Source of the DNA: Candidatus Nanohaloarchaea archaeon | Lineage (GTDB): Archaea; Nanohalarchaeota; Nanosalinia; Nanosalinales; Nanosalinaceae | NCBI GenBank assembly: GCA_046539225.1 | Contig: JBKHHG010000008.1 | Location: forward strand, 1 to 24,305 | Length of the DNA: 24,305 nt | Direction: 5' to 3' | In this document: positions 3 through 24,026 of the stretch, one piece after another | How positions within the stretch are numbered: position 1 is the stretch's first letter | Layout: every line of letters begins with the position of its first letter | Made by a program: the position numbers and the translations under genes | The notes under the pieces: model-generated | The model's input: only the letters and a program-made list of their open reading frames with translations | Database searches by the model: none | What the model was told of the DNA's origin: nothing

Positions 3-683
3 GCTATCAACGCCTACAACCACATGAATAAACAGATACGGAAGATAAAAGACGTTGCTGAAGAGGGAGACGTTGATCTTCGTCAGGCCTCGAAACACTT
101 CTTTGATGGAGAAAAACTTGGAGGAGATAATGAAGAGGAAGCATCCCGAGGCTCTAAATCTGATTCAGAACCCGAAGAAGGCCTCGAAGCCCGTTTAAAG
201 AGAAAGATCGACAGGCTGGAAGATCGGTTAGAAAACCTTGAATCAGAGAACACAGAACTTGAAGCCGAAACCGAAAAGCTTGAGCAGAAACTGGTGAACG
301 AAAGAGAAAAGGACCGCAAAGAAGCCCTGAAAGATGAAGAGGTCAGGAAACGCGAAGGAATAATCAAGGATAAAACCTCTGAAATCTCCCGGCTCGAGGA
401 AAAAGTTGAAGACCTCAGCACAGCCCTGAAAGCCTATAGACAGGCCTTGAAAAAGATTTTTGGCGGCGGAGAGCTTGTTCCAATAGTCGACGAATTAGAT
501 GAGGTAGAAGAGAAAGCAGTTTTCAGGTCGGAAGAATCTCTGGAAAAAGTTGAACTCGATGAAGTAAAGCTCCGGCATGTGGAAGAGATAAAAGGCCTCG
601 AGCTCAAAGACTTTGTAGTCGTGGAAGAGTTCCCCGAGAAAAGCTTTGAAAAAGTTATAGAGGAGTACAGGGAGTCAAGATGA
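3..683 (+). CDS. DUF460-like coiled-coil protein, C-terminal part (5' end outside window)
   Basis: The frame is open from the window edge (AINAYNHMNKQIRKI...), so the ATG at 24 is probably internal. AINAY resembles the DALAAAxxAY segment of DUF460/COG2433 and is followed by a long acidic coiled coil. Family recognised from memory. Confidence 0.6.
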   Translation, partial: AINAYNHMNKQIRKIKDVAEEGDVDLRQASKHFFDGEKLGGDNEEEASRGSKSDSEPEEGLEARLKRKIDRLEDRLENLESENTELEAETEKLEQKLVNEREKDRKEALKDEEVRKREGIIKDKTSEISRLEEKVEDLSTALKAYRQALKKIFGGGELVPIVDELDEVEEKAVFRSEESLEKVELDEVKLRHVEEIKGLELKDFVVVEEFPEKSFEKVIEEYRESR

Positions 684-1225
684 CAGAGCTTCACGAAAAA
701 ATTCACAGGACTTCTATCTTTGTCGCAAAGCTGCTGTTCGCCGGCATTGTCTTCAGGCTGATGCTTCTCGTAATGCCTTCCACGTACCAACTGCAGTCGG
801 CCTTCGCTGAACTAATCTCCTTCCTGATGAACATAGCAGGAATAGAGGCCTTTACAACCGGGACAAGAATCTTCACCGAGAAATCCGTCTACCTGATAGT
901 CCAGGACTGCCTCGGCTGGAAATCCATCGCACTCTTCATAGGTTTGATATACGCCTCGACAAAAAGAACACTCGAACACTTAAACTACGTAATCGCTGCA
1001 ACAGCCGTTTTAATGGTAGCAAACATTGCAAGAGTATTCACAACTGTCTACCTTGCAGAATCAGGCCTTATAAGCTTCCAGGTAATTCATGGAGTGCTCT
1101 GGCGCTGGAGCCTCACTATTGTGGTGCTCGTGCTCTGGCTTTACTGGTTTAAAAACAGGAGAAACGATTTAAAGTTCGAATCAAGGATACAGGAACAGCT
1201 CGACAGGTTAAATCAGACTGAGTAA
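680..1225 (+). CDS. Exosortase/archaeosortase family membrane transpeptidase
   Basis: Several TM helices with the family Cys-Arg-His pattern: YLIVQDCLGWKS, ANIARV, VIHGVLW. ATGA overlap with the upstream gene. Confidence 0.8.
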   Translation: MTELHEKIHRTSIFVAKLLFAGIVFRLMLLVMPSTYQLQSAFAELISFLMNIAGIEAFTTGTRIFTEKSVYLIVQDCLGWKSIALFIGLIYASTKRTLEHLNYVIAATAVLMVANIARVFTTVYLAESGLISFQVIHGVLWRWSLTIVVLVLWLYWFKNRRNDLKFESRIQEQLDRLNQTE

Positions 1226-2151
1226 ATCAGAAACCTCAGTACTGAAACGCCGTAGATTGTTAAGGCCAGGGCAACAGGGAACACCGGCATGAAACGGATT
1301 CCGTCCTTGACCTCGACTTTTTCAACCTCTGAGTTTCTTAAAGTTTCAAGGCCTTCCTCTGTAAGGCCTACAATCTCCGAGTAACCATACTTGTCGTTCA
1401 AAAACTCGATGAAGGCCTTTACTCTGCTTTCAGGCAAAGTTTCAGATATTCTTGAAAATGTCTTTCCCAGGATATTAGGCTTTTTCCAGGTCTTCAGGTC
1501 GACTCCTTCAAAACTGACAACGTCTCCGATCTCCAGTTCTTCGATACTGATCTCTTCGGTCATTACTTCTTCCTCAACCGACTGGAAGAAGAAGTAGACG
1601 AAAACCATGAATTCGTAGAAACTGAGGAATATCCATCCCGTGTTTCCATTCATAGCTATGGGGAAGAAGAATCCTATGCCGACTAAAAAACCTGCAATAA
1701 GTTTGTTCTGACCTAATTTTTCTTTGAATGATTTTCTTGTTTTCTGGTCTTTCAGTCCTTTTACAGCTCCGAATAAAAGAGCGTAGACAAATGCTACAGC
1801 CATCATGTTTATGAATAAATCTATTACACCGAGTATGCCGTTCATCTGTATCAGGAAGTAGGTTGATGAAAACCCGAGGACGGATATGCCAAGCATGTCG
1901 GCTCCGCCCCACATATCCATTATGTAGCTTATGAATCCGTAGGCTGTGAACACTGAACCGACTAAAATGCTTGTGTAGAAGGCTTCAGGGTTTTTTACAA
2001 TAATTGAGTGTGTTAGATGCAGTATTAGGCCTGATGCTATCCCGAAAAGCAGTATTGATGCGGGTACATCTCCTTTCTCGCTCTTCAGGTCGTATACTGA
2101 GGCTATTCCAAGCGAGATAAACCCGAGAAACGCTGAGGCTTCTATGAGCAT
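1213..2151 (-). CDS. A24-family prepilin/prearchaellin peptidase (FlaK/PibD-like)
   Basis: Polytopic membrane protein with both catalytic Asp motifs (SVYDLK; WGGADML, GxGD-type) and a C-terminal IRFMPVFP motif typical of archaeal A24 peptidases. Confidence 0.85.
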   Translation of the reverse strand: MLIEASAFLGFISLGIASVYDLKSEKGDVPASILLFGIASGLILHLTHSIIVKNPEAFYTSILVGSVFTAYGFISYIMDMWGGADMLGISVLGFSSTYFLIQMNGILGVIDLFINMMAVAFVYALLFGAVKGLKDQKTRKSFKEKLGQNKLIAGFLVGIGFFFPIAMNGNTGWIFLSFYEFMVFVYFFFQSVEEEVMTEEISIEELEIGDVVSFEGVDLKTWKKPNILGKTFSRISETLPESRVKAFIEFLNDKYGYSEIVGLTEEGLETLRNSEVEKVEVKDGIRFMPVFPVALALTIYGVSVLRFLIYSV

Positions 2152-2158
2152 AACAGTC

Positions 2159-2182
2159 TTTAAATCCGGGACAAGTTAAAAC
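2159..2182. promoter_or_regulatory. Overlapping divergent TATA-like boxes between the peptidase and the pilus ATPase unit
   Basis: TTTAAAT at 2159-2165 on the + strand. TTTTAAC on the - strand at about 2175-2181, roughly 25-30 nt before the peptidase ATG (2151). The spacer is only 44 bp. Confidence 0.5.
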
Positions 2183-2195
2183 AATACTGTTGGTC

Positions 2196-3218
2196 ATGGC
2201 AGACGACTGGGAGAACCTTGTGATAGAGACCGGTGTTGACAGCCTTCTGAACTATCTTGCCGAGAACAAGAAGGCCTCGTGCAGTACTATAAGCAGCGAG
2301 ATCGGGGTGGATGAGTCGCGTGTCCGTAACTGGGCGGATGCACTTGCTGATGAAAACCTGATTGAGAAGCATCATACACTGACTTCAGGCCTTGTCCTTG
2401 AGTTCACGGAGCAGAATATTGAGGAGTCTGAAAAGAAGAAGGAGGAGATTGAGGAGGATCTGGATGTTCAGACCGAGGAGCTTCGGAAGAAACTGGATGA
2501 GAAGTCTAATCTTGTGAGGGAGAAACGCGAGGAGCTTCTGCAGAGGAAGGATAAACTGAGTGAAGAGGAGAGAGAGGAAATCGTAAATGATACGGTTACA
2601 AGGCTTGAAGAGCTGGAGAACCGGATTGATGAACAGCTCCGGGTGAAAGGCCTCGACCATCAGACACTGAAACTTGTTAATGAAATTGAGAGGGTTCTGC
2701 ATGAAGTCGAACAGTTGATCAGGAAACAGCTGGATGAGGAGCAGGACAGGAAGCTGAACCAGAAAACTGGAGAGGTAATCCATGAAGTAGAGAAAGTGCT
2801 TGAAAAGGCCGAGAAAGAAGGAGAGCTTTCTGAAGAAGAGCAGGATATAAGGATGAAGATCAAAGCTGTGGAGAAGCTTGAGGATAACATTAGGAAAGCC
2901 AGGCGAAATCGTGATGAAGAAAGCAAAGGCCTGAAATCCCGTTTAAAATCTCTTATTCCTGTTTCGAAGAAGCATTCGGGATCTGAAAAAGATGTGGTGG
3001 AGAGGAGGATTGCAGAAGATGAAAAGATCAAGAAGTCAGAGGTCCCAGAGGAGACCTACCAGGAGCTTGTCGACACCAACAGAGTGACAGAGGTCATGAG
3101 GAAGATCTCGCTGCTGAAAAACCCTGACTACGAGGCCTTGCTCCGGGCCGAGTCCAGCAACCGTGACAGGCCTGATCTCGTCGATTACCTTGAGGAGCGG
3201 ATAGAAGATGGCAGATGA
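2196..3218 (+). CDS. Hypothetical protein: N-terminal winged-HTH-like segment, long acidic coiled coil, small C-terminal helical motif; probably pilus-associated
   Basis: IETGVDSLLNYLAENKKASCSTISSEIGVDESRVRNWADALADENLI has HTH-like spacing. The middle is heptad-rich. The stop overlaps the ATPase start. ATG at 2196 preferred over TTG at 2190. Confidence 0.75.
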   Translation: MADDWENLVIETGVDSLLNYLAENKKASCSTISSEIGVDESRVRNWADALADENLIEKHHTLTSGLVLEFTEQNIEESEKKKEEIEEDLDVQTEELRKKLDEKSNLVREKREELLQRKDKLSEEEREEIVNDTVTRLEELENRIDEQLRVKGLDHQTLKLVNEIERVLHEVEQLIRKQLDEEQDRKLNQKTGEVIHEVEKVLEKAEKEGELSEEEQDIRMKIKAVEKLEDNIRKARRNRDEESKGLKSRLKSLIPVSKKHSGSEKDVVERRIAEDEKIKKSEVPEETYQELVDTNRVTEVMRKISLLKNPDYEALLRAESSNRDRPDLVDYLEERIEDGR

Positions 3219-4965
3219 AGACTCTATAGTTGAGAAGAAGAGGAAAGAGTTTTTGAACGAGACTGAAGGCCTCAGTCAGGATCTTGAGGGTCAGGATGAT
3301 CGGGGAGAAGGTGAAGAAGACGGTAAGGATCGAGAAAGTATAGATGATATAGATCTTGAACCGCCTCAGATAGATGCTCTCGAGGAGATCGATCCCGAGG
3401 AGCTTGAAGAGGAGTACTCTGAGAATGAGGACGAGTTCTTCAGTCATATAGAGGAGGATTACAAGGTTCAGGCGGATGAGGTGCCGGCAAAGATCACGAT
3501 CGGGGACAAGAAAGGAGAGTACGTGAAGGTGTACAAGCTTGACAGGCCTCAGGTCAGCGGTGGAACAGAGGCCTTCATCCAGAATCTCAGGGCTCAGGCT
3601 GTAAGATCCGTCAAGCTTTCGCGAGACGAGTTCACGGATTCTGATGAGGTTGAAAAAGTCAAGCAGAAGTTCCGGGAGGCTGTCAAGGCCCAGCTGGACC
3701 AGATGATCCCTGAAGCCGATGAAACCGCGAGAAAAATACTTGTAGGAAACCTTATCCACCAGATGGTAGGCCTCGGCGACCTTGAAATACTTCTGCAGGA
3801 TCCTGATCTTGAGGAGCTTGTTGTCAACTCTGCAGACGAACCTACATGGGTGTACCACAAGGAATACGGCTGGCTGAAGACCAATATCACTTTTAAGGAC
3901 GAAGAGGAGATCTACAACTATTCCTCGGAGATCGCTCGACGTGTCGGTAAAAATATTACAAGCCTGGATCCTCTGCTCGATGCTCATCTTCCTACAGGCG
4001 ACCGTACAAACGCAACTCTGAATCCTATCTCCACTCACGGCAATACTATCACTATCAGGAAGTTCGCCCGTGATCCATGGACTATAACAGATTTCATACA
4101 GAACGAGACGATTACAAAAGAGGTTGCTGCCTTTCTCTGGCTCTGCCTCCAGTACGAGCTGAGTGTTATTGTTTCGGGAGGTACAGGTTCGGGAAAGACT
4201 TCGCTTTTGAACGTTTTGATGCCTTTTATGCCTCCGAATCAGAGGATTCTCTCGATCGAGGACACGCGTGAGGTCCAGCTGCCGGGGTTCCTTCACTGGG
4301 TGCCTTTAACGACCAGGGAGGCAAATCCAGAGGGAGAAGGCGAAATCTCAATGCTTGATCTGCTGGTTAACTCTCTGCGTATGAGGCCTGACCGTATACT
4401 GGTCGGAGAGATCCGTAAAAAGCGCCAGGCCGAAGTCCTTTTCGAGGCGATGCACACAGGCCACTCAGTTTACTCTACCCTGCACGCCGATACCGCTCAG
4501 CAGACGATCCAGAGGCTTTTGAATCCTCCTATCGATGTGGCCGAGCAGATGGTTCAGTCCGTAGATGTAAACGTTGTGATGTTTAGGGACAGGCGTAGAA
4601 ACTTCAGGCGTGTCTTCCAGGTTGCAGAAGTCGCGAAATCTGGTTACAAGAGGGGTAGTCAGGAGATGAGCCTCGGCGCGAACGTGATCTACGGCTGGGA
4701 CTCGGAAAACGACGAAATAGAAAAGAAGAGAGACTCGGACAACATTATGAATAAGCTGCAGATGCATACAGGTATGGACAGGGAGGAGATATTTGAAAAC
4801 ATCTCCGACAAGGAGAAAGTGCTTCAGTGGATGATCGACCGGGATGTAGAAGATGTGGATGAAGTAGGAAAGATAATCGCAGAGTACTACAACAACGAGG
4901 ATGATATTATCTCAATGGCGGAGAACAACGAGGATCCACAGGAAATCTTCGACCGCTACTCGTAA
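3208..4965 (+). CDS. Type II/IV secretion system ATPase (VirB11/CpaF/FlaI/PilB family)
   Basis: Walker A SGGTGSGKT, Asp box SIEDTREV, Walker B region LRMRPDRILVGEIR, His box TGHSVYSTLHA. Confidence 0.95.
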   Translation: MADEDSIVEKKRKEFLNETEGLSQDLEGQDDRGEGEEDGKDRESIDDIDLEPPQIDALEEIDPEELEEEYSENEDEFFSHIEEDYKVQADEVPAKITIGDKKGEYVKVYKLDRPQVSGGTEAFIQNLRAQAVRSVKLSRDEFTDSDEVEKVKQKFREAVKAQLDQMIPEADETARKILVGNLIHQMVGLGDLEILLQDPDLEELVVNSADEPTWVYHKEYGWLKTNITFKDEEEIYNYSSEIARRVGKNITSLDPLLDAHLPTGDRTNATLNPISTHGNTITIRKFARDPWTITDFIQNETITKEVAAFLWLCLQYELSVIVSGGTGSGKTSLLNVLMPFMPPNQRILSIEDTREVQLPGFLHWVPLTTREANPEGEGEISMLDLLVNSLRMRPDRILVGEIRKKRQAEVLFEAMHTGHSVYSTLHADTAQQTIQRLLNPPIDVAEQMVQSVDVNVVMFRDRRRNFRRVFQVAEVAKSGYKRGSQEMSLGANVIYGWDSENDEIEKKRDSDNIMNKLQMHTGMDREEIFENISDKEKVLQWMIDRDVEDVDEVGKIIAEYYNNEDDIISMAENNEDPQEIFDRYS

Positions 4966-4969
4966 ACCG

Positions 4970-4977
4970 TTTTAAAA
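4970..4977 (+). promoter_or_regulatory. TATA box for rpl18a-pfdA-ftsY
   Basis: AAACCG-TTTTAAAA begins 29 nt before ATG 4999, consistent with BRE/TATA and a leaderless start. Confidence 0.6.
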
Positions 4978-4998
4978 ATTGCTGCGGCTTAGGCTTTT

Positions 4999-5163
4999 AT
5001 GGAAGAATACAGCTTTTCTGGAAAAATCAGGATGGGCAACCAATGGCAAAAATTCGAGAGAACCGTAGAAGCAGAGTCAGAGAAACACGCAGAGCAGAAA
5101 CTGCTTTCAGAACTTGGCAGCGAACACGGAGTAGCCCGCGGAAACATCAAACTGAGTGAATAA
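4999..5163 (+). CDS. rpl18a: 50S ribosomal protein L18Ae/LX (eL20); absent from the ORF track
   Basis: Hand translation gives MEEYSFSGKIRMGNQWQKFERTVEAESEKHAEQKLLSELGSEHGVARGNIKLSE (54 aa), with the eL20 A-E-x-x-x-S-x-x-G-S-x-H signature. It lies in the conserved position upstream of pfdA-ftsY. Confidence 0.9.
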   Translation: MEEYSFSGKIRMGNQWQKFERTVEAESEKHAEQKLLSELGSEHGVARGNIKLSE

Positions 5164-5164
5164 C

Positions 5165-5548
5165 ATGGTAGAACAGATGCAACAGTTACAGCAGCTTCAG
5201 CAACAGTCACAGCAGATAGAAGAATACCTTGAACAGGTGGAACAGACCCGTATACAGATAACAGAATCGAAACAGGCCGTACTCGACCTTGAAGAAGTAG
5301 ATGAAGGAGATGAAATCCTTGCAAGGGTTGGAGCAGGGGCATACGTGAAAGCGGAGGTCAAGGACACCGGAAAAGTCGTCAGCAACATCGGCGGAGACGT
5401 ATTCGAAGAAAGGTCAAACGAAGGCGCTGCAAACGTGCTTGAAAAACAGCTGACGCTTCTACAGGATACCCAGGAAGAGCTCCAGGACCAGATGAAGGAG
5501 ATACAGCAGCAGATGCAGCAAATCCAGCAACAGATGCAGCAAGAATAG
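5165..5548 (+). CDS. pfdA: Prefoldin subunit alpha
   Basis: Gln-rich terminal coiled coils around the beta-hairpin segment EILARVGAGAYVKAEVKDTGKVVSNIGGDVFEE. Conserved rpl18a-pfdA-ftsY order. ATG at 5165 lies 1 nt after the rpl18a stop. Confidence 0.92.
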   Translation: MVEQMQQLQQLQQQSQQIEEYLEQVEQTRIQITESKQAVLDLEEVDEGDEILARVGAGAYVKAEVKDTGKVVSNIGGDVFEERSNEGAANVLEKQLTLLQDTQEELQDQMKEIQQQMQQIQQQMQQE

Positions 5549-5552
5549 GCCT

Positions 5553-6671: not shown

Positions 6672-6747
6672 AACGTTAAAATCAGTATCTAAACCGTCCT
6701 CTACTGTATCAAGTAGTGTAGAAACGAGTTCCTTTATAGCTAATCAC

Positions 6748-7089: not shown

Positions 7090-7128
7090 AAAACCACTCT
7101 GTATCTACTCAATCATCGTAAAATTCTT

Positions 7129-7626
7129 TTAAGTCTTTTGATTTAAGGCCTCGGGAATCTGAACCCCGAGATCCCTGCACTGATCCTGCTGGTAAAACCT
7201 TGCGGTTACAGCCCCGAGAACCGCGTCAAACTCTTCTGAACATGTGATCTCAGAAGTATCGATTCCATAGCTTTCAAGCGCCTGATCCCCGCCTATAGCG
7301 AGTTCGCGGCTTGTAATCATCTCGTCAAACCTGATCAACTCTACTTCAAGGCCTTTCTCGAAAAGAAGCTGTTTGAGATGGACAGCCCTCCGGTTCAGAT
7401 CCGTTTCGTTGGTGGAAGGCGAAAAACTGTAGCCCTCTTCCACAAGATCTTCCTCATCATCTGAAAGGCCTTCAACAGGTTTAAAGGAAGCATTTACCGC
7501 CAGAACCTCTACATCTTCAAGCTCTTCGGCGATATCCTCGTTGGTCTCCACTTCGATTATCTCAAGTCCATCTCCGAGCTTCGCCAGAAAGGACTTTCCC
7601 GTTGTAAGGTTGACGCCTGCGATCAT
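7129..7626 (-). CDS. DUF429-like (predicted RNase H-fold nuclease) protein, apparently degenerate
   Basis: MIAGVNL, VLAVNAS and EEFDAVLGAVTARFY match by eye the DUF429 pattern GxDL, xIDAP, DALxAAxxA, with Asn at two Asp positions. Confidence 0.6.
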   Translation of the reverse strand: MIAGVNLTTGKSFLAKLGDGLEIIEVETNEDIAEELEDVEVLAVNASFKPVEGLSDDEEDLVEEGYSFSPSTNETDLNRRAVHLKQLLFEKGLEVELIRFDEMITSRELAIGGDQALESYGIDTSEITCSEEFDAVLGAVTARFYQQDQCRDLGVQIPEALNQKT

Positions 7627-8345: not shown

Positions 8346-8370
8346 CAATAACAAGAAACGGGTTGAAACC

Positions 8371-8376: not shown

Positions 8377-8399
8377 CTGTTAAAACCGAGGCCTTACAC

Positions 8400-8729: not shown

Positions 8730-8730
8730 C

Positions 8731-8757: not shown

Positions 8758-10044
8758 ATGTTTGACAGGGTAAAAGACTCTATACAGAAATTTTCGTCTC
8801 GAGCCGCTGTAGATGAAGAAGCGGTGGAAGAGCTTGTAAAAGACATTCAACGCGACCTTATCGCCGCGGACGTCGACGTTGAACTTGTGTCCAGTTTAAG
8901 CGATGAGATAAGAGAGGAAGCCCTTGAAGGAGAAAAAAAGGGCCTGACACGGAAAGAACACGTACTTGAAACAGTCTACAACAGGATGGAGGAGCTGCTG
9001 GGAGAAAAACCCGATATAGAGATCAAGCCCCAGAAAATCCTGCTTTCAGGCCTTTACGGCGCGGGAAAGACCACGACAGCGGCGAAACTCTCGGATTATT
9101 ACAGGAAGCGAGGCCTGAAAACCGGTCTGATCGCCGCTGACACCGATAGGCCTGCGGCTTACGACCAGCTGAAGCAGATGGCGGAGAAGGCCGACAGCGA
9201 GTTCTATGGAGATCCTGAGGCAGAAGACCCTTCAAAAGTCGTGGAGAAAGGCCTTGAAGAGCTGGACGCGGAAGTAGTGATTGTGGACTCAGCGGGGAGG
9301 AACTCACTGGATTCAGAGCTTAAAGAAGAACTTTCAAGGATTGAAGAGGTTTTCAAGCCTGATGAGTCCTACCTTGTGATGCCCGCCGATATAGGCCAGT
9401 CAGCGAGAAAGCAGGCAGAAAACTTTGAAGAAGCGGTCGGTATCTCCGGCGTCGTGGTTTCAAAGATGGATTCCAGCGCGAAAGGAGGTGGAGCACTGAT
9501 CGCCTGCTCTACTTCGGGTGCACAGGTAAAGTTTATTGGTACAGGCGAACAGGTATCCGATATAGAGGTTTATGACCCTGTAAAGTATGTTTCAGAGATG
9601 CTAGGCCAGCCAAACCTTGAATCCCTGCTGGAGAAGGTTGAAGAGCTTGAAACCGATCCAGAGCAGATGCTTGAAGGCGAATTCACTCTGGAGGAGTTCC
9701 GCGAACAGATAGAATCCGTCAGTGAGGCCGGAATGATGGAGGAAATGATGAAACAGCTGCCTTTCGGCGGAAAAATGCCGGATAACATCTCGCAGCTTAC
9801 AGAGGAGAAGACAGAGGCCTACAAGTATATTATAGACTCGATGACGGATGAAGAAGTCCAGAATCCTTCAAAGATCAACAAATCTCGGACCGAGAGGATC
9901 GCGGAGGGATCAGGAACCTCTACTTCAGAAGTCCGGGAGCTTATCAAACATTACCGGCAGACAAAGAACATGATGGACAAGATGGATAAAGGCTCGATGA
10001 AACGCGGCAACATGCAGAGCATGATGCAGAACTTAGGCCTCTGA
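8758..10044 (+). CDS. srp54: Signal recognition particle protein SRP54/Ffh
   Basis: LIAADV, GLYGAGKTTT, DTDRPAAYDQL, DSAGR, SKMD and GTGE motifs, plus a Met-rich M domain (IIDSMT, SRTERIAEGSG). Start at ATG 8758 (MFDRVK) rather than 8680. Confidence 0.96.
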   Translation: MFDRVKDSIQKFSSRAAVDEEAVEELVKDIQRDLIAADVDVELVSSLSDEIREEALEGEKKGLTRKEHVLETVYNRMEELLGEKPDIEIKPQKILLSGLYGAGKTTTAAKLSDYYRKRGLKTGLIAADTDRPAAYDQLKQMAEKADSEFYGDPEAEDPSKVVEKGLEELDAEVVIVDSAGRNSLDSELKEELSRIEEVFKPDESYLVMPADIGQSARKQAENFEEAVGISGVVVSKMDSSAKGGGALIACSTSGAQVKFIGTGEQVSDIEVYDPVKYVSEMLGQPNLESLLEKVEELETDPEQMLEGEFTLEEFREQIESVSEAGMMEEMMKQLPFGGKMPDNISQLTEEKTEAYKYIIDSMTDEEVQNPSKINKSRTERIAEGSGTSTSEVRELIKHYRQTKNMMDKMDKGSMKRGNMQSMMQNLGL

Positions 10045-10338
10045 GTTCATTTTAACCTCTTTCTCTACTTCTTCCTTGATCTCCTGTATATCCTCGGGAC
10101 TGTAAAAACTTTCAAGGCCTAACTGCCTTTCCAGGTCTTTCTCCATCTCCCTGTACTCTCTGTCAACTTCTTCGTCGACCATGCACAGCCTTGAATGCAC
10201 TACACCTGTAGAAACCTGAAGGGTCTCGATAAAGCTGTACCACTTCGTCGGTAGATGAACGTCAAGCCTTGAGAATAGGCCTGTAATTCCGATCATTGCA
10301 AGCAGCAGCTTCCTGTACGCAAATTGTTTGGCACGCAT
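10033..10338 (-). CDS. Hypothetical protein (hydrophobic N-terminus, acidic C-terminal helix)
   Basis: 101-aa ORF filling the gap between srp54 and the phosphodiesterase. The acidic C-terminal half looks genuinely coding; the start is uncertain. Confidence 0.55.
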   Translation of the reverse strand: MRAKQFAYRKLLLAMIGITGLFSRLDVHLPTKWYSFIETLQVSTGVVHSRLCMVDEEVDREYREMEKDLERQLGLESFYSPEDIQEIKEEVEKEVKMNSEA

Positions 10339-10429: not shown

Positions 10430-10999
10430 ATGATCGCGATTCTATCGGATTCACATATCCCTGGAAGGGCCGAAAAAATACCTGAAAAGTTCTGGGAGAA
10501 AGTGGAGGAAGCCGACGTAACGGTGCACGCCGGCGACTACGCCAGGAAAGAAACCTTTAACGCGGTCGAAGAGTACTCGAAAGAGTTCTACGGCGTAAAA
10601 GGAAACTGCGACTTCTTTGAGACTGATGAACTGGAAAACTCGCAGAGATTCGAGAGAAAAGGCCTCAGCTTCGGCGTCTACCATGGAACAGGTGTAACCC
10701 CGAGAGGCCATACACCGACGCTTCAAAAAATCGCGTCAGAAGACCTGGAAGTAGAGGTATTGATCCACGGCCACACCCATAGACAGCAGATAGTACTCGG
10801 GGAGAAGGCCTTGCTCCTGAATCCTGGAAGCTGTACAGGCGCCGGAGGCGGTGCCTCGAGAGAGTCAGCTCCCACAATGATGACAGTAGACCTTGGGGAG
10901 AAACTTGAGGCCTCTATCCTGAAAATTGAAGGCGGAGAGTTGAAACTGGAGGAATCGAAAAGTTTTGAACTGAAAGAAATTAAAAAAGACTCTGTATAA
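10430..10999 (+). CDS. YfcE/MJ0936/Vps29-family metallophosphoesterase
   Basis: Calcineurin-like motifs LSDSH, HAGD, VKGNCD, YHG, HGHTH and LNPGS. Confidence 0.92.
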   Translation: MIAILSDSHIPGRAEKIPEKFWEKVEEADVTVHAGDYARKETFNAVEEYSKEFYGVKGNCDFFETDELENSQRFERKGLSFGVYHGTGVTPRGHTPTLQKIASEDLEVEVLIHGHTHRQQIVLGEKALLLNPGSCTGAGGGASRESAPTMMTVDLGEKLEASILKIEGGELKLEESKSFELKEIKKDSV

Positions 11000-16172: not shown

Positions 16173-16194
16173 CCCTTAACCGTTCAACTGTTTT

Positions 16195-17721
16195 ATGCCG
16201 GAAGACAAGTATATCTTCGTTACTGGCGGTGTTCTATCAGGCCTGGGAAAAGGCCTTGTCGCTGCAAGCGTATCAAAACTTCTACAGCTTCGAAACGTTG
16301 AGATTGAGCCTGTCAAGTGTGATGGCTATCTCAACGTCGACCCTGGAACGATGAACCCGGAGGAGCACGGCGAGGTCTACGTGCTTGAGGACGGGACTGA
16401 GGTCGACATGGACTTCGGGCATTACGAACGCTTTCTGGACATCGAGTTAACCGGCGAAAGAAACCTGACCTCGGGGAAAATTTTCCAGGAAGTCATCCAG
16501 AACGAGAGAAACGGCGACTACCTGGGAGAAACAGTCCAGATGATTCCACACGTCACAGACCTGATAAAACAGAAATTCAAGACAGATGCGGACGTTACAG
16601 TTATAGAAGTCGGTGGAACAGTAGGAGACATCGAAAACATGCTCTACCTCGAGGCCTTGCGACAGCTACAGGGAGAAAACAGTTTCCATATTCATGTTAC
16701 GCTTGTTCCATACCTTGAAACCACCGGCGAGCAGAAGACAAAGCCCACGCAGCATTCAGTAAAAGAACTCAGGTCTATAGGCCTTCAACCCGACATGATA
16801 GTCGGAAGAAACCAGGAAAGACTTGAAGAAGATATAAGGGAGAAGATCAGCCTTTTCACAGATGTTGGAGAGGATTCAGTTATCTCTGATCCAAACCTTG
16901 ATACTGTGTACAGACTGCCGCTTGTATTTGACAGGCAGGACGTCGATAAAATTATAGCTGAAGATCTAAGTCTTCCTGAAAGATCTGAAGGCCTTGAGGC
17001 CTGGAGTGAAAAGGTTGAAAACATTGTGAAGCCTGGAGAAAAAAGAATCGGGGTTTACGGCAAGTACACCGGCATGGACGACTCCTACGCCTCGATAGAA
17101 GAAGCCGTGAAGCATTCAGAGGCGGAAACCGGTGTAAACGTTGAACTGGAGTATATTGACTCGGAGAACCCTGAAGATCCTGAAAAGTTTGATGGCATCA
17201 TAATTCCCGGAGGATTCGGCCAGAGAGGTATAGAAGGCAAGATTCAGGCCTTGAAAAAAGCCCGTGAAAACGGTATACCGGCTTTAGGCCTCTGCCTGGG
17301 GATGCAGCTGATGGTTATCGAGTTCTGCAGGAACATCCTCGGAATGGATGCAACCTCGGGAGAGTTTGACCAGGAGGGTAGAAACGTCGTGAAGCAGATG
17401 CCTGAACAGGAAGACGTCGAGCAGAAAGGCGGAACCATGAGGCTTGGGGGCTACGAGGCAGAGCTCTCAGGAAAAATAGCAGAGATCTACGGCTCGGATA
17501 AGGTTACAGAGAGGCATAGACACCGTTACGAAGTCGATCCCGAACTTGTGGAAAAGCTGGAGAAAAAAGGCCTGAAGATCGAAGGATTCCACGGAGAGCT
17601 GCCGGAGTTCTCCCGCCTTGAAAACCATGGCTTCTACATCGGGACGCAGGCCCATCCAGAGTTCAACTCCACGGTCGAAAACCCGAGCCCTCTCTTCTCA
17701 AGGTTTCTGAACTCCCTATGA
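16195..17721 (+). CDS. pyrG: CTP synthase
   Basis: KYIFVTGGVLSGLGKG, YLNVDPGTMNPEEHGEV, KTKPTQHSV, and a GATase domain with PGGFG, GLCLGMQ, RHRHRYE and QAHPEF. Confidence 0.98.
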   Translation: MPEDKYIFVTGGVLSGLGKGLVAASVSKLLQLRNVEIEPVKCDGYLNVDPGTMNPEEHGEVYVLEDGTEVDMDFGHYERFLDIELTGERNLTSGKIFQEVIQNERNGDYLGETVQMIPHVTDLIKQKFKTDADVTVIEVGGTVGDIENMLYLEALRQLQGENSFHIHVTLVPYLETTGEQKTKPTQHSVKELRSIGLQPDMIVGRNQERLEEDIREKISLFTDVGEDSVISDPNLDTVYRLPLVFDRQDVDKIIAEDLSLPERSEGLEAWSEKVENIVKPGEKRIGVYGKYTGMDDSYASIEEAVKHSEAETGVNVELEYIDSENPEDPEKFDGIIIPGGFGQRGIEGKIQALKKARENGIPALGLCLGMQLMVIEFCRNILGMDATSGEFDQEGRNVVKQMPEQEDVEQKGGTMRLGGYEAELSGKIAEIYGSDKVTERHRHRYEVDPELVEKLEKKGLKIEGFHGELPEFSRLENHGFYIGTQAHPEFNSTVENPSPLFSRFLNSL

Positions 17722-18233: not shown

Positions 18234-18234
18234 G

Positions 18235-18241
18235 TTTTTAA
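18235..18241 (+). promoter_or_regulatory. TATA box for the surface protein gene
   Basis: TTTTTAA starts 31 nt before ATG 18266. Confidence 0.5.
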
Positions 18242-18265
18242 TCAAGGAGGGATAGATATATTTTT

Positions 18266-21028
18266 ATGCGAACCAGAACAGTAAAGTTTTTTCTACTGAT
18301 AGCGGCTTTAGGCCTTTTAGCCGGGGCTGTCTCGGCGGACTGGAGCTTTGAACCCAATGATTACAACCTTGACGCGGTTTCCAACGACAGCAACGCCATC
18401 TACACCACGGATCTAATCGAGGATAGCACGGGCGAAGCTCTATCCCCTGAGGATATCGCCAACTTTACCGCCGGGGAAGGCGGCGACAACAACAATACTT
18501 ACGTTATGTACGAGTACGAAAAACTTAACCGGAGTTCCGGCAACATAACTACTTTTAACCAGACTCTTTCTTACAGCGACAAGTTTGAAACCTGGTACGC
18601 GGAGTTCACTCCCTACAACGAAAACCTGTCTCAGCTGACTTTCAAGGCTAGAGGCGACTCGGATGTCAGCGGCCATACTTCTTCAGGCGGCGAGGTCACG
18701 GAGAATGTGGATGCAGAGATGCAGGATTCCGATGTTGATCTGCTTACAGAACTTGAAAGCCCAATCAAGGCGGATAAAGAGGTCAAGATGGATGTAAGGG
18801 TGATGAACTCTTCAAGCGGTAATCCTATTGATGTCAACGAGACGGATGTAACCGTATACTTCCACAACCTTTCGGAACAGGGCGAGGTCTTTGAACTCAA
18901 CAACTACAACAATGATCCTCTTCAGGACGGCGGGCAGTACCACCACAACGCAGAGGTTAGAACCCCTGCACCGACTAACTCCTCGTTTATCATGAGGGTG
19001 GAGGCCGACTCCGGAAGCTCGAAAGGTTCAGAATCAATTTTCGTAGATACAGCGCCCGCAATCCAGGGAGATATAGCCTCTATCTCATCGCCTGGATGCA
19101 GCAATGAAGACGTGCCCAGAGACTGCGATCCCGATGCCGAAATAGATACAGAGTTTGACGTGACAGAGGCGGGAGCTGAAGGAGTAAACCTCACCATCTA
19201 CAGGAAGAACATTACTTCAGGAGAATGGGAAAACGTTTCCCGGGAGGAAATGGGGGAGGCCTCAGCTAACGACGGCGCTTTACAGACCTTTGACACCAAC
19301 GCGACCCTCCCCGACCTGAATACCTCGGAATTCGAGAAGAAAGCGAAGCTGAACTACCATGCCTGGAACCAGGACAGAAACTTTGACCAGAACCATACCG
19401 TCGATCTGAAAACATTTGTTATAGAGGACAGGAGCAACCCGACAGCTTTCAAGTCCCGTGAACACGTTATAACGCTTTTCCTTGGAAGAGAGTTCAGCAG
19501 GAGTTCCTACGACAGTTCAAGGTTTGAAGAACTTAACGTCACACTTAGAGGCCCTGAAAACGAGTTCAACGAATCCTACAGCATGGAAGACTTTGAATAC
19601 CTTGATGATGATGGAACGTTGACCAAATCTATAACGATCCCTGGGGAAGAGGCCTCTGGAGCCTATGAACTTGGGGTCTCGGCTGAAGACCTTTTCGGAG
19701 AGACGAAATCCATTACGCGAGGCCTCAAGGTGAGAGACGTTAACTCGACTTTTTCAGCAGATGAAGAGCTCGACCTTGAATACAGCTCCCTCGGCGTCTT
19801 TAACGAGACTATAACTCTTGAAAACCTTGTCAATGAGCTCAATACTCTTGAAGTTGTCAACGAAAACGAGAACCTCAGCACATCCAGCTACGTTGATCTC
19901 GAGGCAGATGAAGAGAAACAGGTTGATCTCCAAGTAAACGTTTCAGACCCTGTCAGCTTTGAATCACCTATAGAGTTTGTGGACTCGTCAGCCCAGTACA
20001 ACGAGACCACAACCGTCTCTGTACAGGGGCCTAACTGCGAAATCCGGGACGAGGATCTATGCGCCAACCGGAGCTCGGTAGATGTATCCACAGGCGAAGA
20101 AACCGTTCAAACTGAGGATATAGGCCTCACAAACCTTGGAGATGAAGAGATGGAGGCCTCCGTAAAGATTACAGGCAACGCGTCACAGGCCTTCTCCGCC
20201 GAGGAAAACATTACTTTGGATGGACATAATAATCTTGAGCTTGATTTCTCGCCAGAGTTCTCAGGCCTTTACAGCGGCGATCTCGAGATAGAGACGGAAG
20301 AATACATGACATCTCTTGATCTGACTGGAGAAGCAGATATATCGGATCAAGGAGAGGCCTCTTTACAGGTCTCTCCTTCCACGATCGATATGGGCAGCTT
20401 ACCAGAAGGAGAACCATACGAAGCGGAACTAACGGTGGAAAACACAGGCGATGTTTCAATCGAGGATATAACCACTGCCTCAGATCTTAACATCGATGTT
20501 GAAGAGTTCAGTCTTTCGCCTGGCGAATCAAAACAGTTAGAGTTTACTATTGAAGAGCCAGCTTCCGGTTCAATAGTGTTTGCAGGCAACAGTTCGCAGG
20601 ACGAGGCCTCATTCACCGTAGATGTTTCAGGAGAGGTTATCGAGGACTACTCGGAGAGAACCAGTGAACTGAGTTCAAGGATGAACGACCTGAGATCCCA
20701 GACAGACGATTCATCTCTTGAATCCGACCTGACAGAGGTTTCCGGAATGATCGACAGTATTGAAACCCAGTGGGAGAGAGGAGACTACGACGAAGCAAGA
20801 TCAACATTCGAGGAGGCCCAAGGGATTCTTGACAGTGTAGAAAGAGATATGGCCTCAGATTCGACACCGGATGACCAACAGCAGGAAGAGGAAGAGGAAA
20901 ATGGAGGACCCCCTATAATCCCGATTTTAGGGGTAGTCTTCGTGTTGATGCTTGTCGGAGCAGTAGTATTCTACGAAAGCTACATACCTGAAGAAGGCGA
21001 TCCGCTCTACGGCGTGATGGGAGAATGA
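18266..21028 (+). CDS. Large secreted, membrane-anchored surface glycoprotein (beta-rich/Ig-like repeats, helical stalk, C-terminal TM)
   Basis: Sec signal peptide ending AVSA. More than 25 N-x-S/T sequons. Repeated (I/L)x(L/V)xN-[LT]-[GV] Ig-like motifs. Helical acidic segment, then a single TM helix near the C-terminus. Confidence 0.88.
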   Translation: MRTRTVKFFLLIAALGLLAGAVSADWSFEPNDYNLDAVSNDSNAIYTTDLIEDSTGEALSPEDIANFTAGEGGDNNNTYVMYEYEKLNRSSGNITTFNQTLSYSDKFETWYAEFTPYNENLSQLTFKARGDSDVSGHTSSGGEVTENVDAEMQDSDVDLLTELESPIKADKEVKMDVRVMNSSSGNPIDVNETDVTVYFHNLSEQGEVFELNNYNNDPLQDGGQYHHNAEVRTPAPTNSSFIMRVEADSGSSKGSESIFVDTAPAIQGDIASISSPGCSNEDVPRDCDPDAEIDTEFDVTEAGAEGVNLTIYRKNITSGEWENVSREEMGEASANDGALQTFDTNATLPDLNTSEFEKKAKLNYHAWNQDRNFDQNHTVDLKTFVIEDRSNPTAFKSREHVITLFLGREFSRSSYDSSRFEELNVTLRGPENEFNESYSMEDFEYLDDDGTLTKSITIPGEEASGAYELGVSAEDLFGETKSITRGLKVRDVNSTFSADEELDLEYSSLGVFNETITLENLVNELNTLEVVNENENLSTSSYVDLEADEEKQVDLQVNVSDPVSFESPIEFVDSSAQYNETTTVSVQGPNCEIRDEDLCANRSSVDVSTGEETVQTEDIGLTNLGDEEMEASVKITGNASQAFSAEENITLDGHNNLELDFSPEFSGLYSGDLEIETEEYMTSLDLTGEADISDQGEASLQVSPSTIDMGSLPEGEPYEAELTVENTGDVSIEDITTASDLNIDVEEFSLSPGESKQLEFTIEEPASGSIVFAGNSSQDEASFTVDVSGEVIEDYSERTSELSSRMNDLRSQTDDSSLESDLTEVSGMIDSIETQWERGDYDEARSTFEEAQGILDSVERDMASDSTPDDQQQEEEEENGGPPIIPILGVVFVLMLVGAVVFYESYIPEEGDPLYGVMGE

Positions 21029-21465
21029 TCGAACAGATTACAGGCCTTCCGGAGCCAGTGCTCACCGGTTTAATCCTCGTGCTTCTTGTAGGAGCACTGA
21101 TTGTAGCGTTCAAAGTCATGGAGATGATTTTCGACACAATAACGATCGCCACATTGTCTGGAGCGCTTTACCTCGGGCTTACGTACATGACTGAGGCGCC
21201 TTTCCAATTGAACGACCTACTGCTTTTCTCATTCCTCGGCGCATCAGTCTACATGCTGTACAGCTTCCTATCAACCCTGATCTCCACAACCTCGACAGCC
21301 ATAAAAATCCCTCTCACTATAATCCTTGGAATCTACAGGCCTCTAAAATCAGGCCTCAAATCCGGCTACAGACACATCAAACTAAAGATCCGGGACATGA
21401 GAGAAGAAGAGATACAGGAAGAAAAAGATAGATCCACGAAAGAAGTCGTCCTCAACTCAGACTAA
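21025..21465 (+). CDS. Membrane protein (3-4 TM, charged C-terminal tail)
   Basis: Hydrophobic helices; ATGA overlap with the surface protein gene. Confidence 0.78.
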   Translation: MIEQITGLPEPVLTGLILVLLVGALIVAFKVMEMIFDTITIATLSGALYLGLTYMTEAPFQLNDLLLFSFLGASVYMLYSFLSTLISTTSTAIKIPLTIILGIYRPLKSGLKSGYRHIKLKIRDMREEEIQEEKDRSTKEVVLNSD

Positions 21466-22008
21466 ATCCTTCAAGACACGGTCAACTTCTTTTTCGGTCG
21501 GAGAGGCCCGCGCCAAAAGATCACCAAGCTCCTCACTCGTTCTCTCCCTGAGAAAATCAAGTCTATCACCCGGAGCGTTTCTCCCCTCAGGTTTCAAGGC
21601 CTGATGCATCACCACTGCAGCAGCATGGCTCAGATTCAACGAACTGTAGTCAGAAGTTTCAATGTGGACAGTGGCGTCGCATCTCTCCAGCTCCGCGTTG
21701 GAAAGCCCCGAAGACTCCCTGCCCAACATTATCGAAGTATTCTCCCTGAACCTGAAGCTTGAGGCCTCAACACCTCTACCCGGTTTTGTACCCACAACAA
21801 ACTCCAGGCCTTCAACCGCTTCATCCACAGAACCATAGATCCTTGAATCACGGAGAACCTGCTGCGCGTTGTTCGCTGTCTCCCTCGCATCCTCAAGGTT
21901 GAAACATGGATCAACCAGTCTCATTTCAAAACCAAAGTTGGCGCAGAGCCTTGCAATAAAACCGGTGTTCTCCGGTGTCTCCGGCTCCACAACAACTACA
22001 GATCTCAT
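21457..22008 (-). CDS. SPOUT RNA 2'-O-methyltransferase, TrmJ/TrmH family
   Basis: VVVVEPETPENTGFIARLCANFG, LGRESSGLSNAEL and YSSLNLSHAAAV. Confidence 0.92.
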   Translation of the reverse strand: MRSVVVVEPETPENTGFIARLCANFGFEMRLVDPCFNLEDARETANNAQQVLRDSRIYGSVDEAVEGLEFVVGTKPGRGVEASSFRFRENTSIMLGRESSGLSNAELERCDATVHIETSDYSSLNLSHAAAVVMHQALKPEGRNAPGDRLDFLRERTSEELGDLLARASPTEKEVDRVLKDLV

Positions 22009-22034
22009 CAGGAAAAAATTTGGACGTGAAACGG

Positions 22035-22044
22035 TTTTATATTT
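22035..22044. promoter_or_regulatory. Single bidirectional TATA element
   Basis: TTTTATATTT begins 31 nt before + ATG 22066. Read as AAATATAAAA, it lies 27-36 nt before - ATG 22008. Confidence 0.55.
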
Positions 22045-22065
22045 CGCCGCAAAGAAAATGCTTGT

Positions 22066-22722
22066 ATGGAAGGTAAGATAGTCGCGGCAACATTTACAAC
22101 CCTGGCGCTGGTATTCGCCGGGATGTCAGGCACATCCGTCAACACAGATGTAGACGAGGTTTTGCCCTCGGAATCGCCTGTAAACGGGCTGACACCTTCC
22201 TTCGATATTGTCGACTCGTTAATGGAGAACCCTGAAGCCGAGAACCCGGCAAAGATCGAAATACAGTTGAAAGACAGGCCTCAACTCAACATCGAAACAG
22301 AAAAACTTGAAGTAGAAGGCCTGAAAACGGTTGAGAGCAGCGTAGGAATTCAGTCAGAAGAAGACCTCATTTTTGAGCCATTCACAGGCAACATAAAAAT
22401 GGATGAAAACAAGACCTCTATAACAGGTTCAGCGGAAGGATTCAGCAACTCCCGTATAAACGTAACCTCAAAGATAGGAATCGACCAAGAAGTAGAGACA
22501 GAGCTTTTAGAGGCCTCAGGCCTTGAAAGAAACAGTTTCACTCTCCAGACTGAGAGAGTTCAGTTAGAGGCCAAGAACGGTAGCTCAAATATAGACCAGA
22601 AAGATCAAGAAGTCGAGATAACTTCTTTCACCGGAGACCTCGACTTTGAACCTCCAAACAGTTTGAAGTTTGACGGAGAAGTCGCAACGGTCAACGCAGG
22701 CCAGACCAGTTTCGGAAACTGA
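22066..22722 (+). CDS. Secreted or membrane-anchored beta-rich hypothetical protein
   Basis: N-terminal hydrophobic segment followed by an acidic beta-strand pattern, with two similar segments (FEPFTGNIKM; ITSFTGDLDF). Confidence 0.78.
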   Translation: MEGKIVAATFTTLALVFAGMSGTSVNTDVDEVLPSESPVNGLTPSFDIVDSLMENPEAENPAKIEIQLKDRPQLNIETEKLEVEGLKTVESSVGIQSEEDLIFEPFTGNIKMDENKTSITGSAEGFSNSRINVTSKIGIDQEVETELLEASGLERNSFTLQTERVQLEAKNGSSNIDQKDQEVEITSFTGDLDFEPPNSLKFDGEVATVNAGQTSFGN

Positions 22723-22760
22723 ACTTATCTTGAAAAAGCTTCGATCCTTCAAACATTTAC

Positions 22761-24026
22761 ATGAGCATTACAGCATCCCTACTCAACGCCGATTTTTCAC
22801 AGGTATTCATAGTTTTACAGGTACTATCATTCCTGCTGTTCTTCGCAATGATATTCTTCCTTCCAAAGCTTATTGTCTGGCAGGCCAACAGGAGAATGAA
22901 CTCTGCCATACTCGACCTGAAGGCCTTCCACAACGACGCGGAAGAATACTTCCTTGAAAACATGAAACCCTTGAGCAACTTCGAGGAAAAGTACGACTCG
23001 ATGAAGAACTTCCAGATCTCCGAGCCAACCTCGCTCGACCCGGCCGGAATGGTCGACAGGCTTGAAAACGTTCTCAACGCCTCAGACCACAAGTTCAAAC
23101 GTTTCGTTGAGAAAAACGCGGACACAGAAGACGAGGAAGAACTTGCAGACCTCAAAATGGCTTTCCAGGGAGTAGTAGGTACACACCAGATGAAGAAAGC
23201 CGTGCAACACTTTAAAGAGCTTATCAACAAGACAGGCAACTTCCAGATTGTCACGCTCGTTCAGATGATGCTCCCGATCTACAAAGAGCTCGCTGAATCC
23301 CAGAAAGGAGCAACCCGGGCCTTTTCAGACAACGCACCGATCGGAGACGGGATAGGCCCGATGATTGCCGCAAAAATGATCACGGAACAGCCTGAAGAAA
23401 TCGCCGACGAGATAGTCCACAGCGAGGAAAAGATCGACGAACAGAAAGTCCACGTCATCAAATCAAAGGGTCCAGGGGCTCGACTCGGAAAGTACGGAGA
23501 AGCAGTGGAAAAAGTAACGGAGGAAAACGACTTAGAGGCCTTTATAACCGTTGACGCAGCCTCAAAGCTTGAATCAGAGAAGACAGGATCCGTCAACGAA
23601 GGCGTCGGAGTAATGATGGGAGGCCCAGGCGTAGAAAAATCAAGGATAGAAGAAGTCGCCGTCGAACACGACATCCCGCTTGAAGGAATCGCTGTAAAAC
23701 AGTCAGCGCCAGAAGCCGCCAAACCCATGAAGAAAGAGATCTTCGAGGCCTGGAAACCCGGCAGAAAAAAAGTAGAGGAACTCGTCAAAGAGTTTGACGG
23801 AGAAGTCGCTGTAATCGGCGTCGGCAACACCTGCGGAGTCGGAAACACCCGGGAAGAAACTCAGGGAATCCACAACAAACTCAGAAAGTACTGGAAAGAG
23901 TACGAAGAACAGGACGAAGACGAAGTCTCCCAGATGGGTCTCATGTCAATGTTCGGTGGAGGCGGACAAGCAAAAGAACTCCAAGAAAAAACCAAGTCCA
24001 TAATGTGGCGAATGCCACATCTTTGA
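22761..24026 (+). CDS. DUF1512-family membrane-anchored protein
   Basis: N-terminal TM, then PIGDGIGPMIA, GPGARLG, TVDAASKLESEKTGSVNEGVGVMMGGPGVEK and VIGVGNTCGVG, matching the archaeal DUF1512 pattern as I recall it. Confidence 0.85.
   Translation: MSITASLLNADFSQVFIVLQVLSFLLFFAMIFFLPKLIVWQANRRMNSAILDLKAFHNDAEEYFLENMKPLSNFEEKYDSMKNFQISEPTSLDPAGMVDRLENVLNASDHKFKRFVEKNADTEDEEELADLKMAFQGVVGTHQMKKAVQHFKELINKTGNFQIVTLVQMMLPIYKELAESQKGATRAFSDNAPIGDGIGPMIAAKMITEQPEEIADEIVHSEEKIDEQKVHVIKSKGPGARLGKYGEAVEKVTEENDLEAFITVDAASKLESEKTGSVNEGVGVMMGGPGVEKSRIEEVAVEHDIPLEGIAVKQSAPEAAKPMKKEIFEAWKPGRKKVEELVKEFDGEVAVIGVGNTCGVGNTREETQGIHNKLRKYWKEYEEQDEDEVSQMGLMSMFGGGGQAKELQEKTKSIMWRMPHL

What the first reader, a model, noticed from the sequence alone, without database searches (positions are those of the whole stretch)
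85..23751. AGGCCT is a HIP1-like highly iterated palindrome in a probable nanohaloarchaeal genome
Seen: about 110 exact copies of AGGCCT in 24.3 kb by hand count, about one per 220 bp. A random hexamer at this composition would occur about 5-6 times, so the excess is roughly 20-fold. I counted only about 45 other GGCC sites, so around 70% of all GGCC have both an A before and a T after (about 1/16 expected). Most of the rest are one-mismatch variants (AGGCCN or NGGCCT). Copies occur in nearly every gene regardless of function or orientation, with no obvious conserved flank. Established: prokaryotes usually avoid 6-bp palindromes. The classic exception is cyanobacterial HIP1 (GCGATCGC), which is dispersed through coding DNA and has been linked to cognate DNA methyltransferases and a proposed methyl-directed repair mechanism. 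Inference: a chromosome-wide system creates or maintains AGGCCT, such as a methyltransferase with biased repair, a chromatin or segregation protein site, or a recombination or uptake signal. I know of no description of this in archaea but cannot exclude one.
Basis: partly seen in the sequence, partly recalled or inferred. Interest (0 to 1): 0.92.

Follow-up and report, generated by a model that had tools for sequence, protein, structure and literature searches.

The report
Hyper-abundant AGGCCT palindrome in nanohaloarchaea
This tiny salt-loving symbiotic archaeon has the six-letter palindrome AGGCCT written into about four of every five places its proteins allow, by an active force that turns near-misses into the word and keeps copies from crowding closer than about 30 letters; it resembles the unexplained HIP1 word of cyanobacteria but no matching DNA methylase was found.

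Summary
Confirmed. AGGCCT occurs 111 times in the window (5.3 expected) and 2,850 times in the 607-kb genome, on all 38 contigs, in all three frames (5-6x a codon-shuffled null) and in spacers (36-50x). It marks 13 of 50 family genomes. On an 8-gene tree all carriers sit in one clade that also holds non-carriers. The scan noted this word before, on this and other genomes; I found no paper on it.

Added here: (1) near-miss sites are not shared between relatives (27 seen, 100 expected for a mutational cold spot), so they are actively converted; (2) copies avoid each other below about 30 bp; (3) the GGCC core is obligatory and the A/T flanks are graded by lineage; (4) once the force is off, the word decays at the neutral rate; (5) no C5 or N4/N6 methylase tracks it, MutS, ComEC and DprA were not found, and two genomes with a GGCC restriction system are depleted.

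Best reading: an unidentified site-specific protein biases repair or gene conversion towards the word (0.45). Selection for its binding sites is the close rival (0.35). The gene was not found.

The parts
85..23751 (.). 111 dispersed copies of the palindrome AGGCCT, in all three frames, in genes of both orientations (26 of 30 called genes)
8389..8394 (.). intergenic copy (one of two in the window's 1,163 non-coding bases)
10277..10282 (.). intergenic copy
16989..17002 (.). one of the rare close pairs (starts 8 bp apart), inside the CTP synthase gene; genome-wide, pairs at 6-10 bp are at 0.22 of the independent-fill null
22511..22523 (.). second close pair (starts 7 bp apart)
7614..7614 (+). polymorphic near-miss site: the other allele in run X2 completes an AGGCCT (1 of 40 listed strain variants makes a copy, 0 of 40 destroy one)
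8758..10044 (+). SRP54 gene used to place the organism; holds 6 copies

Best explanation
A genome-encoded, sequence-specific DNA-binding factor, probably a dimer and possibly a nuclease, reads a GGCC core with preferred A/T flanks and covers about 25-30 bp. When one strand or one chromosome copy reads AGGCCT and the other is a near-miss (a replication error or a recombination heteroduplex), the factor makes the motif-bearing strand the template, so the near-miss is rewritten. Gains outrun losses until about 95% of single-step silent sites and about 80% of all peptide-permitted sites carry the word, and protein sequences are bent towards it. A neighbouring copy inside the footprint blunts the effect. 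Lineages that lose the factor decay at the ordinary silent rate. SHOWN: the excess, active conversion, the specificity gradient, the short-range exclusion, neutral decay, and the lack of a tracking methylase of the families searched. INFERRED: that the agent is a protein, a dimer, genome-encoded, and acts through repair or conversion rather than fitness.
For: Odds ratio 37-41 at the four 4-fold silent positions tested in G000 and 36-50x in spacers: the same force in coding and non-coding DNA. Occupancy is flat along genes, near average in the ribosomal-protein operon (44 of 60) and flat beyond 30 bp from the next copy, so there is no diminishing return with density. Near-miss state shared by two carriers at 27 of 2,467 single-step sites, against 100 for protection only, 34 for selection or drive, 21 for symmetric and 12 for gain-only models. 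Pairs at 6-10, 11-20 and 21-30 bp are at 0.22, 0.63 and 0.79 of an independent-fill null in G000, alike in G005 and G022; other palindromes show no such trend. Inner mismatches give K of 0.6-1.4; flank mismatches give graded K that differs by lineage. Decayed lineages kept 27 of 57 motif bases against 30 expected for neutral change. The excess stays within about 9-21x across 12 carrier loci, a narrow band for a force that should scale exponentially with population size (inference). A cluster of 7 strain variants in 175 bp hints at recombination.
Against: No gene was found. Fifteen candidate families or proteins failed to track; EndoMS/NucS is nearly universal (46 of 50) with no separating residue. 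The count of 27 fits selection (34) as well as it fits biased repair. MutS was not found, and EndoMS mainly handles transition mismatches (recalled), whereas transversions are converted too, so an unknown repair route is needed. Close palindromes could be avoided as hairpins rather than by a footprint; the control with other palindromes has small counts (12-130 pairs per bin).
Confidence: 0.45

Rival explanations
1. Selection for binding sites. An abundant site-specific protein with a footprint of about 30 bp (nucleoid, segregation or self-marking role) binds AGGCCT, and each site gives a small, roughly equal benefit (2Ns about 3-3.7).
For: The selection model predicts 34 shared near-misses against 27 seen. 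Graded affinity and footprint-scale redundancy fit protein binding. Transition near-misses are slightly in excess, not drained. Xu et al. argue for selection on HIP1 (PMC5861425, abstract and sections 8 and 18 read).
Against: The benefit would have to be equal in genes, spacers and all gene classes, and independent of local density beyond 30 bp. Positions are not conserved: 690 of 1,246 aligned G000 copies are not even permitted by the G005 peptide. No significant long-range period in G005 by a simple test. Several sister lineages do without it.
Confidence: 0.35
2. An Elhai-type ratchet driven by a DNA modification that my searches missed: a very divergent or host-supplied methylase, phosphorothioate or another base change at GGCC.
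For: Near-miss excess lies at the outer positions, as in HIP1 (PMC4390886, abstract and first part of section 3.4 read). A paper reports slightly raised symbiont-type methylation in the host genome, suggesting enzyme transfer between the cells (PMC11001535, passages).
Against: No C5 methylase in the complete carriers G005, G010 and G022. N4/N6 hits over the cut-off occur in only one carrier, G022; the weak hits are Trm11-like. MutS, which the model needs, was not found. The two genomes with a HaeIII-like GGCC methylase plus NgoPII nuclease are depleted: 73 and 97 copies. I did not run Dnd, Dpd, Dam (D12) or Vsr family searches.
Confidence: 0.12
3. Uptake-signal drive: incoming DNA that carries AGGCCT is taken up or recombined preferentially, as with DUS/USS.
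For: Motif-encoded peptides are enriched (RP 1.66, GL 1.45, AS 1.41 against 0.83, 1.02, 1.04 in a non-carrier) and islands lack the word, both as described for uptake sequences (PMC2817400, abstract). A type IV pilus ATPase lies in the window.
Against: ComEC and DprA were not found in 5 of 5 complete genomes. The word is a 6-bp palindrome without a flank; close pairs are depleted.
Confidence: 0.05
4. Passive causes: a mutational cold spot, codon or peptide bias, or an assembly artefact.
For: None beyond the high occupancy itself.
Against: The cold-spot model predicts 100 shared near-misses, 27 were seen; codon-shuffle nulls give a fifth to a sixth of the count; spacers are enriched; 13 genomes and two independent runs hold it.
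Confidence: 0.03

Closest known systems
HIP1 (GCGATCGC) and alternate HIPs of cyanobacteria (PMC4390886, PMC5861425)
   Same: Short palindrome, more than 15-fold over-represented, dispersed in all frames and spacers; near-misses biased to the outer bases; sporadic loss in relatives; cause unknown.
   Different: Archaeal; a 6-mer at one per 210 bp; no cognate methylase found, and a GGCC methylase goes with depletion; no MutS found; no alternate HIP in non-carriers (no other palindromic hexamer above 4.6x in 27 loci); exclusion below about 30 bp.
DNA uptake sequences DUS/USS of Neisseria and Pasteurellaceae (PMC2817400, abstract)
   Same: Accumulate in coding DNA, raise the frequency of encoded peptides, and are absent from recently acquired genes.
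   Different: Those are longer asymmetric words tied to competence machinery (recalled); here a palindromic hexamer, with ComEC and DprA not found.
Dcm/Vsr very-short-patch repair signature (recalled)
   Same: A repair bias that reshapes word frequencies genome-wide.
   Different: VSP drains T-containing variants; here AGGTCT and AGGCTT are not drained (K 1.2-1.4) and all six positions are converted.
HaeIII/NgoPII-type GGCC restriction-modification
   Same: Same core; present in G020 and G024 of this family.
   Different: It goes with avoidance of the word, the opposite state.

Membership tests
Cyanobacterial HIP | Short palindrome over-represented 15-fold or more | tested here: met
   16-20x genome-wide, 36-50x in spacers; rank 1 of 2,080 hexamers in three carriers
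Cyanobacterial HIP | Dispersed in all reading frames and in non-coding DNA | tested here: met
Cyanobacterial HIP | Not explained by codon or peptide use | tested here: met
   5-6x over synonymous shuffles
Cyanobacterial HIP | One-off variants biased to the first and last base | tested here: met
   AGGCCN K 1.1-4.9 against inner mismatches 0.6-1.4
Cyanobacterial HIP | Cognate DNA methyltransferase present | tested here: not met
   PF00145 in 1 of 8 carriers among 41 genomes; PF01555 over cut-off in 1 of 8; local HMM and motif scan. D12-class and non-methyl modifications not searched.
Cyanobacterial HIP | Sites conserved between genomes more than control codons | tested here: inconclusive
Cyanobacterial HIP | 10-90 kb periodicity | tested here: inconclusive
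   One genome, simple FFT rather than Xu's method: peak 9.2 against a shuffle 95th percentile of 9.3
Cyanobacterial HIP | MutS/MutL repair available (needed by Elhai's model) | tested here: not met
   PF00488 in 0 of 5 complete genomes, control rings in 11 of 14; MutL not searched
Cyanobacterial HIP | Sites methylated in vivo | not testable with these tools
   needs SMRT or nanopore reads, or digestion
DUS/USS uptake sequences | Competence machinery (ComEC, DprA) | tested here: not met
   0 of 5 genomes each
DUS/USS uptake sequences | Encoded peptides enriched; absent from new genes | tested here: met
DUS/USS uptake sequences | Sequence-biased uptake | not testable with these tools
   needs cells
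Dcm/Vsr signature | T-variants of the core drained | tested here: not met
   T variants are 1.1-2.2x relative to the other non-motif bases

The most novel reading that the evidence does not exclude
A methylation-independent, sequence-directed heteroduplex-resolution system in a DPANN archaeon: a protein that recognises AGGCCT on one strand and makes it win over any single mismatch, driving its own 6-bp site to saturation through the chromosome and the proteome as a selfish or by-product drive, switched on once and off several times within one family.
Probability: 0.35. Interest if true: 0.93.

Novelty: new variant of a known kind. Interest (0 to 1): 0.8.

Why it matters
Why HIP1 exists has been open for about three decades, and the main mechanistic model ties it to methylases and mismatch repair. 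Here a 1-Mb archaeal genome reaches HIP-level saturation with neither a tracking methylase nor MutS found, and close sisters are on, decaying, off or depleted. That makes the cause findable by a small pangenome comparison and a pull-down. It also lets selection be tested against repair bias with population reads. The measured specificity gradient and the 30-bp exclusion give concrete predictions for the binding assay.

Tried and rejected
Gene hunt (failed). I compared G000 (82% complete), G005 (whole), G022 (780,000 of 1,046,959 bases) and one non-carrier, G014 (whole). 172 G005 genes were shared with carriers and missing or weak in G014. 98 of these were scanned with Pfam and 26 proteins again with NCBIfam; the rest I judged by eye. 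The 229 soluble G014-only genes were read by eye, not scanned. G014 turned out to lie outside the carrier clade, so it is a weak contrast.

Candidates that did not track: C5 methylase, N4/N6 methylase (12), NreA (5 of 5), G014's Mre11-like gene (0 of 5 with this query), UvrB-like (1 of 5 strong), Ogg-like (2 of 5, one of each state), wHTH (5 of 5), OB-fold (4 of 5), histones (50 of 50), NucS (46 of 50; no separating column), Mrr (16 of 50), SWIM (19 of 70, absent from G022 and G057), DUF167 (4 of 5), a PD-(D/E)xK-like ORF (6 of 70; label by eye), a metallophosphoesterase. A NikR-like gene sits beside a ZIP-type transporter and was dropped by eye.

Strain variants (40 listed, 191 not shown, contigs only) have no power. 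Run X3 holds only a small share of the stretch and was not used. No period under 100 bp stood out. No strand bias of half-sites with respect to transcription or the GC-skew halves of G005. The single-gene RpoA' tree (5 changes) misplaced G000 relative to its genus and was superseded by the 8-gene tree. Literature searches listed no paper on this word in archaea; subscription journals are mostly outside the library, and I opened no supplements.
Full report
OBSERVATION. The window holds 111 AGGCCT among 160 GGCC against 5.3 expected from composition. The genome G000 (606,781 bases, 38 contigs, 82% complete) holds 2,850, with every contig enriched; the ratios are 20x, 16x and 5.9x over Markov orders 0, 1 and 2. 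With my own gene calls (727 genes) the word occurs in all three frames, 445/929/1168, against means of 84/183/185 in 20 within-gene synonymous shuffles. In tRNA-free spacers it is 36-50x enriched (230 sites in 39 kb). It is absent from 869 bases of tRNA and thin in the G005 rRNA region (7 in 6.8 kb). The nearest named records are Nanohaloarchaea MAGs, and the window's genes are ordinary housekeeping genes.

DISTRIBUTION. Among 70 genomes of the phylum, 13 of 50 in the family carry it (4.3-17x the reversed-word control; G003 is intermediate at about 1 per kb) and 0 of 20 in other families do; the highest non-carrier ratio is 1.6. An 8-gene tree of 27 rows (3,019 columns, quick method, two near-duplicate loci left out) puts all carriers in one clade (SH-aLRT 100) that also holds five non-carrier rows, needing three changes. 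One origin with at least three losses fits, plus two partly decayed loci; the root is at the midpoint and I ran no AU test. A one-gene tree of 37 rows needed five changes but misplaced G000. Non-carriers have no substitute word: no other palindromic hexamer exceeds 4.6x in 27 loci.

STRENGTH. Where one silent change decides the word, G000 has the motif base in 94-98% of cases, with odds ratios of 37-41 at the four 4-fold positions. G005 gives 15-79, G022 5-30 and the non-carrier G014 1.2-2.2. Of all peptide-permitted sites G000 fills 430 of 503, 880 of 1,166 and 1,128 of 1,419 by frame; G014 fills 8-11%. The proteome is bent too: RP, GL and AS are at 1.66, 1.45 and 1.41 against 0.83, 1.02 and 1.04. 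Low-occupancy genes are largely island-like (labels by eye).

ACTIVE CONVERSION. If the word were only protected from mutation, a near-miss would persist and be shared by relatives. Over five sets of carrier pairs (2,467 shared single-step sites; ORFs under 9% D+E were dropped from the alignments), both genomes lacked the motif base at 27 sites. The predictions, scaled on matched control codons, were 100 for protection only, 34 for selection or drive, 21 for a symmetric bias and 12 for gain only. The pairs are not independent, and site heterogeneity raises the observed count, which makes the rejection of protection conservative but blurs the other three. In the two decayed loci, 27 of 57 motif bases shared by two carriers were kept, against 30 expected from the same codons elsewhere: the force is simply off.

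SPECIFICITY. Mismatches inside GGCC abolish the effect (K 0.6-1.4). The flanks are graded. K for completing the core is 33 with both flanks, 1.2-2.6 with one and 0.6-0.9 with none in G000; 37, 2.2-6.3 and 0.6-0.95 in G005; 21, 6.4-7.8 and 2.2-4.0 in G022; and 1.4, 0.8-1.1 and 0.5-1.2 in G014. This reads like the affinity profile of a binding protein whose stringency has drifted between lineages (inference). T-containing near-misses are not drained, which argues against Vsr-type repair. Half-sites show no strand bias.

SPACING. A permitted site is filled less often when another copy is close: 0.24 at 6-10 bp, 0.57-0.62 at 11-20, about 0.69 at 21-30 and 0.74-0.78 beyond, with the same shape in G005 and G022. 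Against 100 independent-fill simulations, pairs in G000 are 7 against 32, 54 against 86 and 70 against 88, each below the simulated minimum; other palindromes show no consistent deficit, on small counts. Beyond 30 bp there is no dependence on density, and no period was found at short or long range.

THE AGENT WAS NOT FOUND. C5 methylases occur in 9 of 41 genomes and in only one of the 8 carriers there. N4/N6 methylases over the cut-off occur in one carrier, and the weak hits are tRNA-methylase-like. G020 and G024 carry a HaeIII-like methylase (E 3e-96 to 1dct for G020's enzyme) beside an NgoPII nuclease and have only 73 and 97 copies, so in this family GGCC methylation goes with avoidance. MutS, DprA and ComEC were not found in five complete genomes while the controls rang. 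The other candidates are listed under Tried and rejected. The factor may be a core protein with changed specificity, may lie in DNA I did not hold, or may come from the host.

MECHANISM. Two readings survive. Biased repair or conversion explains a force that is equal everywhere, independent per site and dispensable, but it needs an unknown pathway that also handles transversions. Selection for binding sites explains the affinity gradient and the footprint as easily and fits the count of 27, but it needs equal benefits at thousands of unconserved positions. I put them at 0.45 and 0.35. Both need the same kind of recogniser, so I hold a site-specific factor with a footprint of about 30 bp at about 0.8.

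COMPARISON. It works like a cyanobacterial HIP: of nine HIP rows, four are met, two inconclusive, one untestable, and the methylase and MutS rows are not met. I do not file it as a member. Papers: PMC4390886 (abstract, outline, first part of section 3.4); PMC5861425 (abstract, sections 8 and 18); PMC2817400 (abstract); PMC11001535, PMC10266531 and PMC10609329 (passages), none of which contains AGGCCT in its main text. Six searches listed no report of this word in archaea; supplements were not opened and most subscription journals are not held. The scan's own notes describe the same word on this genome and on eight other windows. They are unchecked leads, and their visible lines mention neither the conversion test, the spacing exclusion nor the flank gradient.

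VERDICT. Real, strong, lineage-switched and apparently unpublished; a new variant of the HIP phenomenon. Interest 0.8.

Noticed in passing
G000, whole genome: CTAG is almost erased: 133 sites, 0.06 of the order-1 expectation, against 0.34 in G005 and 0.62 in G014.
   Followed up: no
L001 and L002 (G020, G024): A complete HaeIII/NgoPII-type GGCC restriction-modification pair in the AGGCCT-depleted genomes. G021 is also depleted (55 copies) without a C5 methylase, but has untested N4/N6 methylases.
   Followed up: partly
G000 C12:18266-20536: A 2.3-kb stretch without the word, over an asparagine-synthetase-like gene (label by eye) that is syntenic in relatives; 0 of 5 permitted sites filled, and 7 columns separate 6 carriers from 8 non-carriers. 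Unexplained.
   Followed up: no
window 10516-10690: Seven strain variants in 175 bp in run X2, far denser than elsewhere; it may be a recombined tract in the metallophosphoesterase gene.
   Followed up: no
G014: L125:1104-6020, L129:9312-12739, L125:8055-9265: UvrABC-like, Mre11/Rad50-like and split EndoQ-like genes (named by eye) not found in G000, G005 or the held part of G022; the Mre11-like query found nothing in 5 other genomes.
   Followed up: partly
all 50 family genomes: Two to five histone-fold matches each, and NucS/EndoMS about 5 kb from rpoA' in most; MutS not found in 5 complete genomes.
   Followed up: partly
G022 C1:220143-233583: A 13.4-kb stretch without AGGCCT, probably a recently gained island with metal-transport genes (label by eye).
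   Followed up: no
L098:6283-7164: An ORF with a PD-(D/E)xK-like motif and no Pfam or NCBIfam hit, at a variable spot beside a tRNA-synthetase gene; strong matches in four genomes and a distant remnant in G000.
   Followed up: partly
L363, L365, L044: The decayed loci are lower in G+C (0.38-0.40) than their carrier sisters (0.42-0.44).
   Followed up: no
window 18266-21028: A 920-residue acidic protein with a signal-peptide-like start and a C-terminal membrane anchor, perhaps a surface protein; an exosortase-family gene lies at 680-1225.
   Followed up: no
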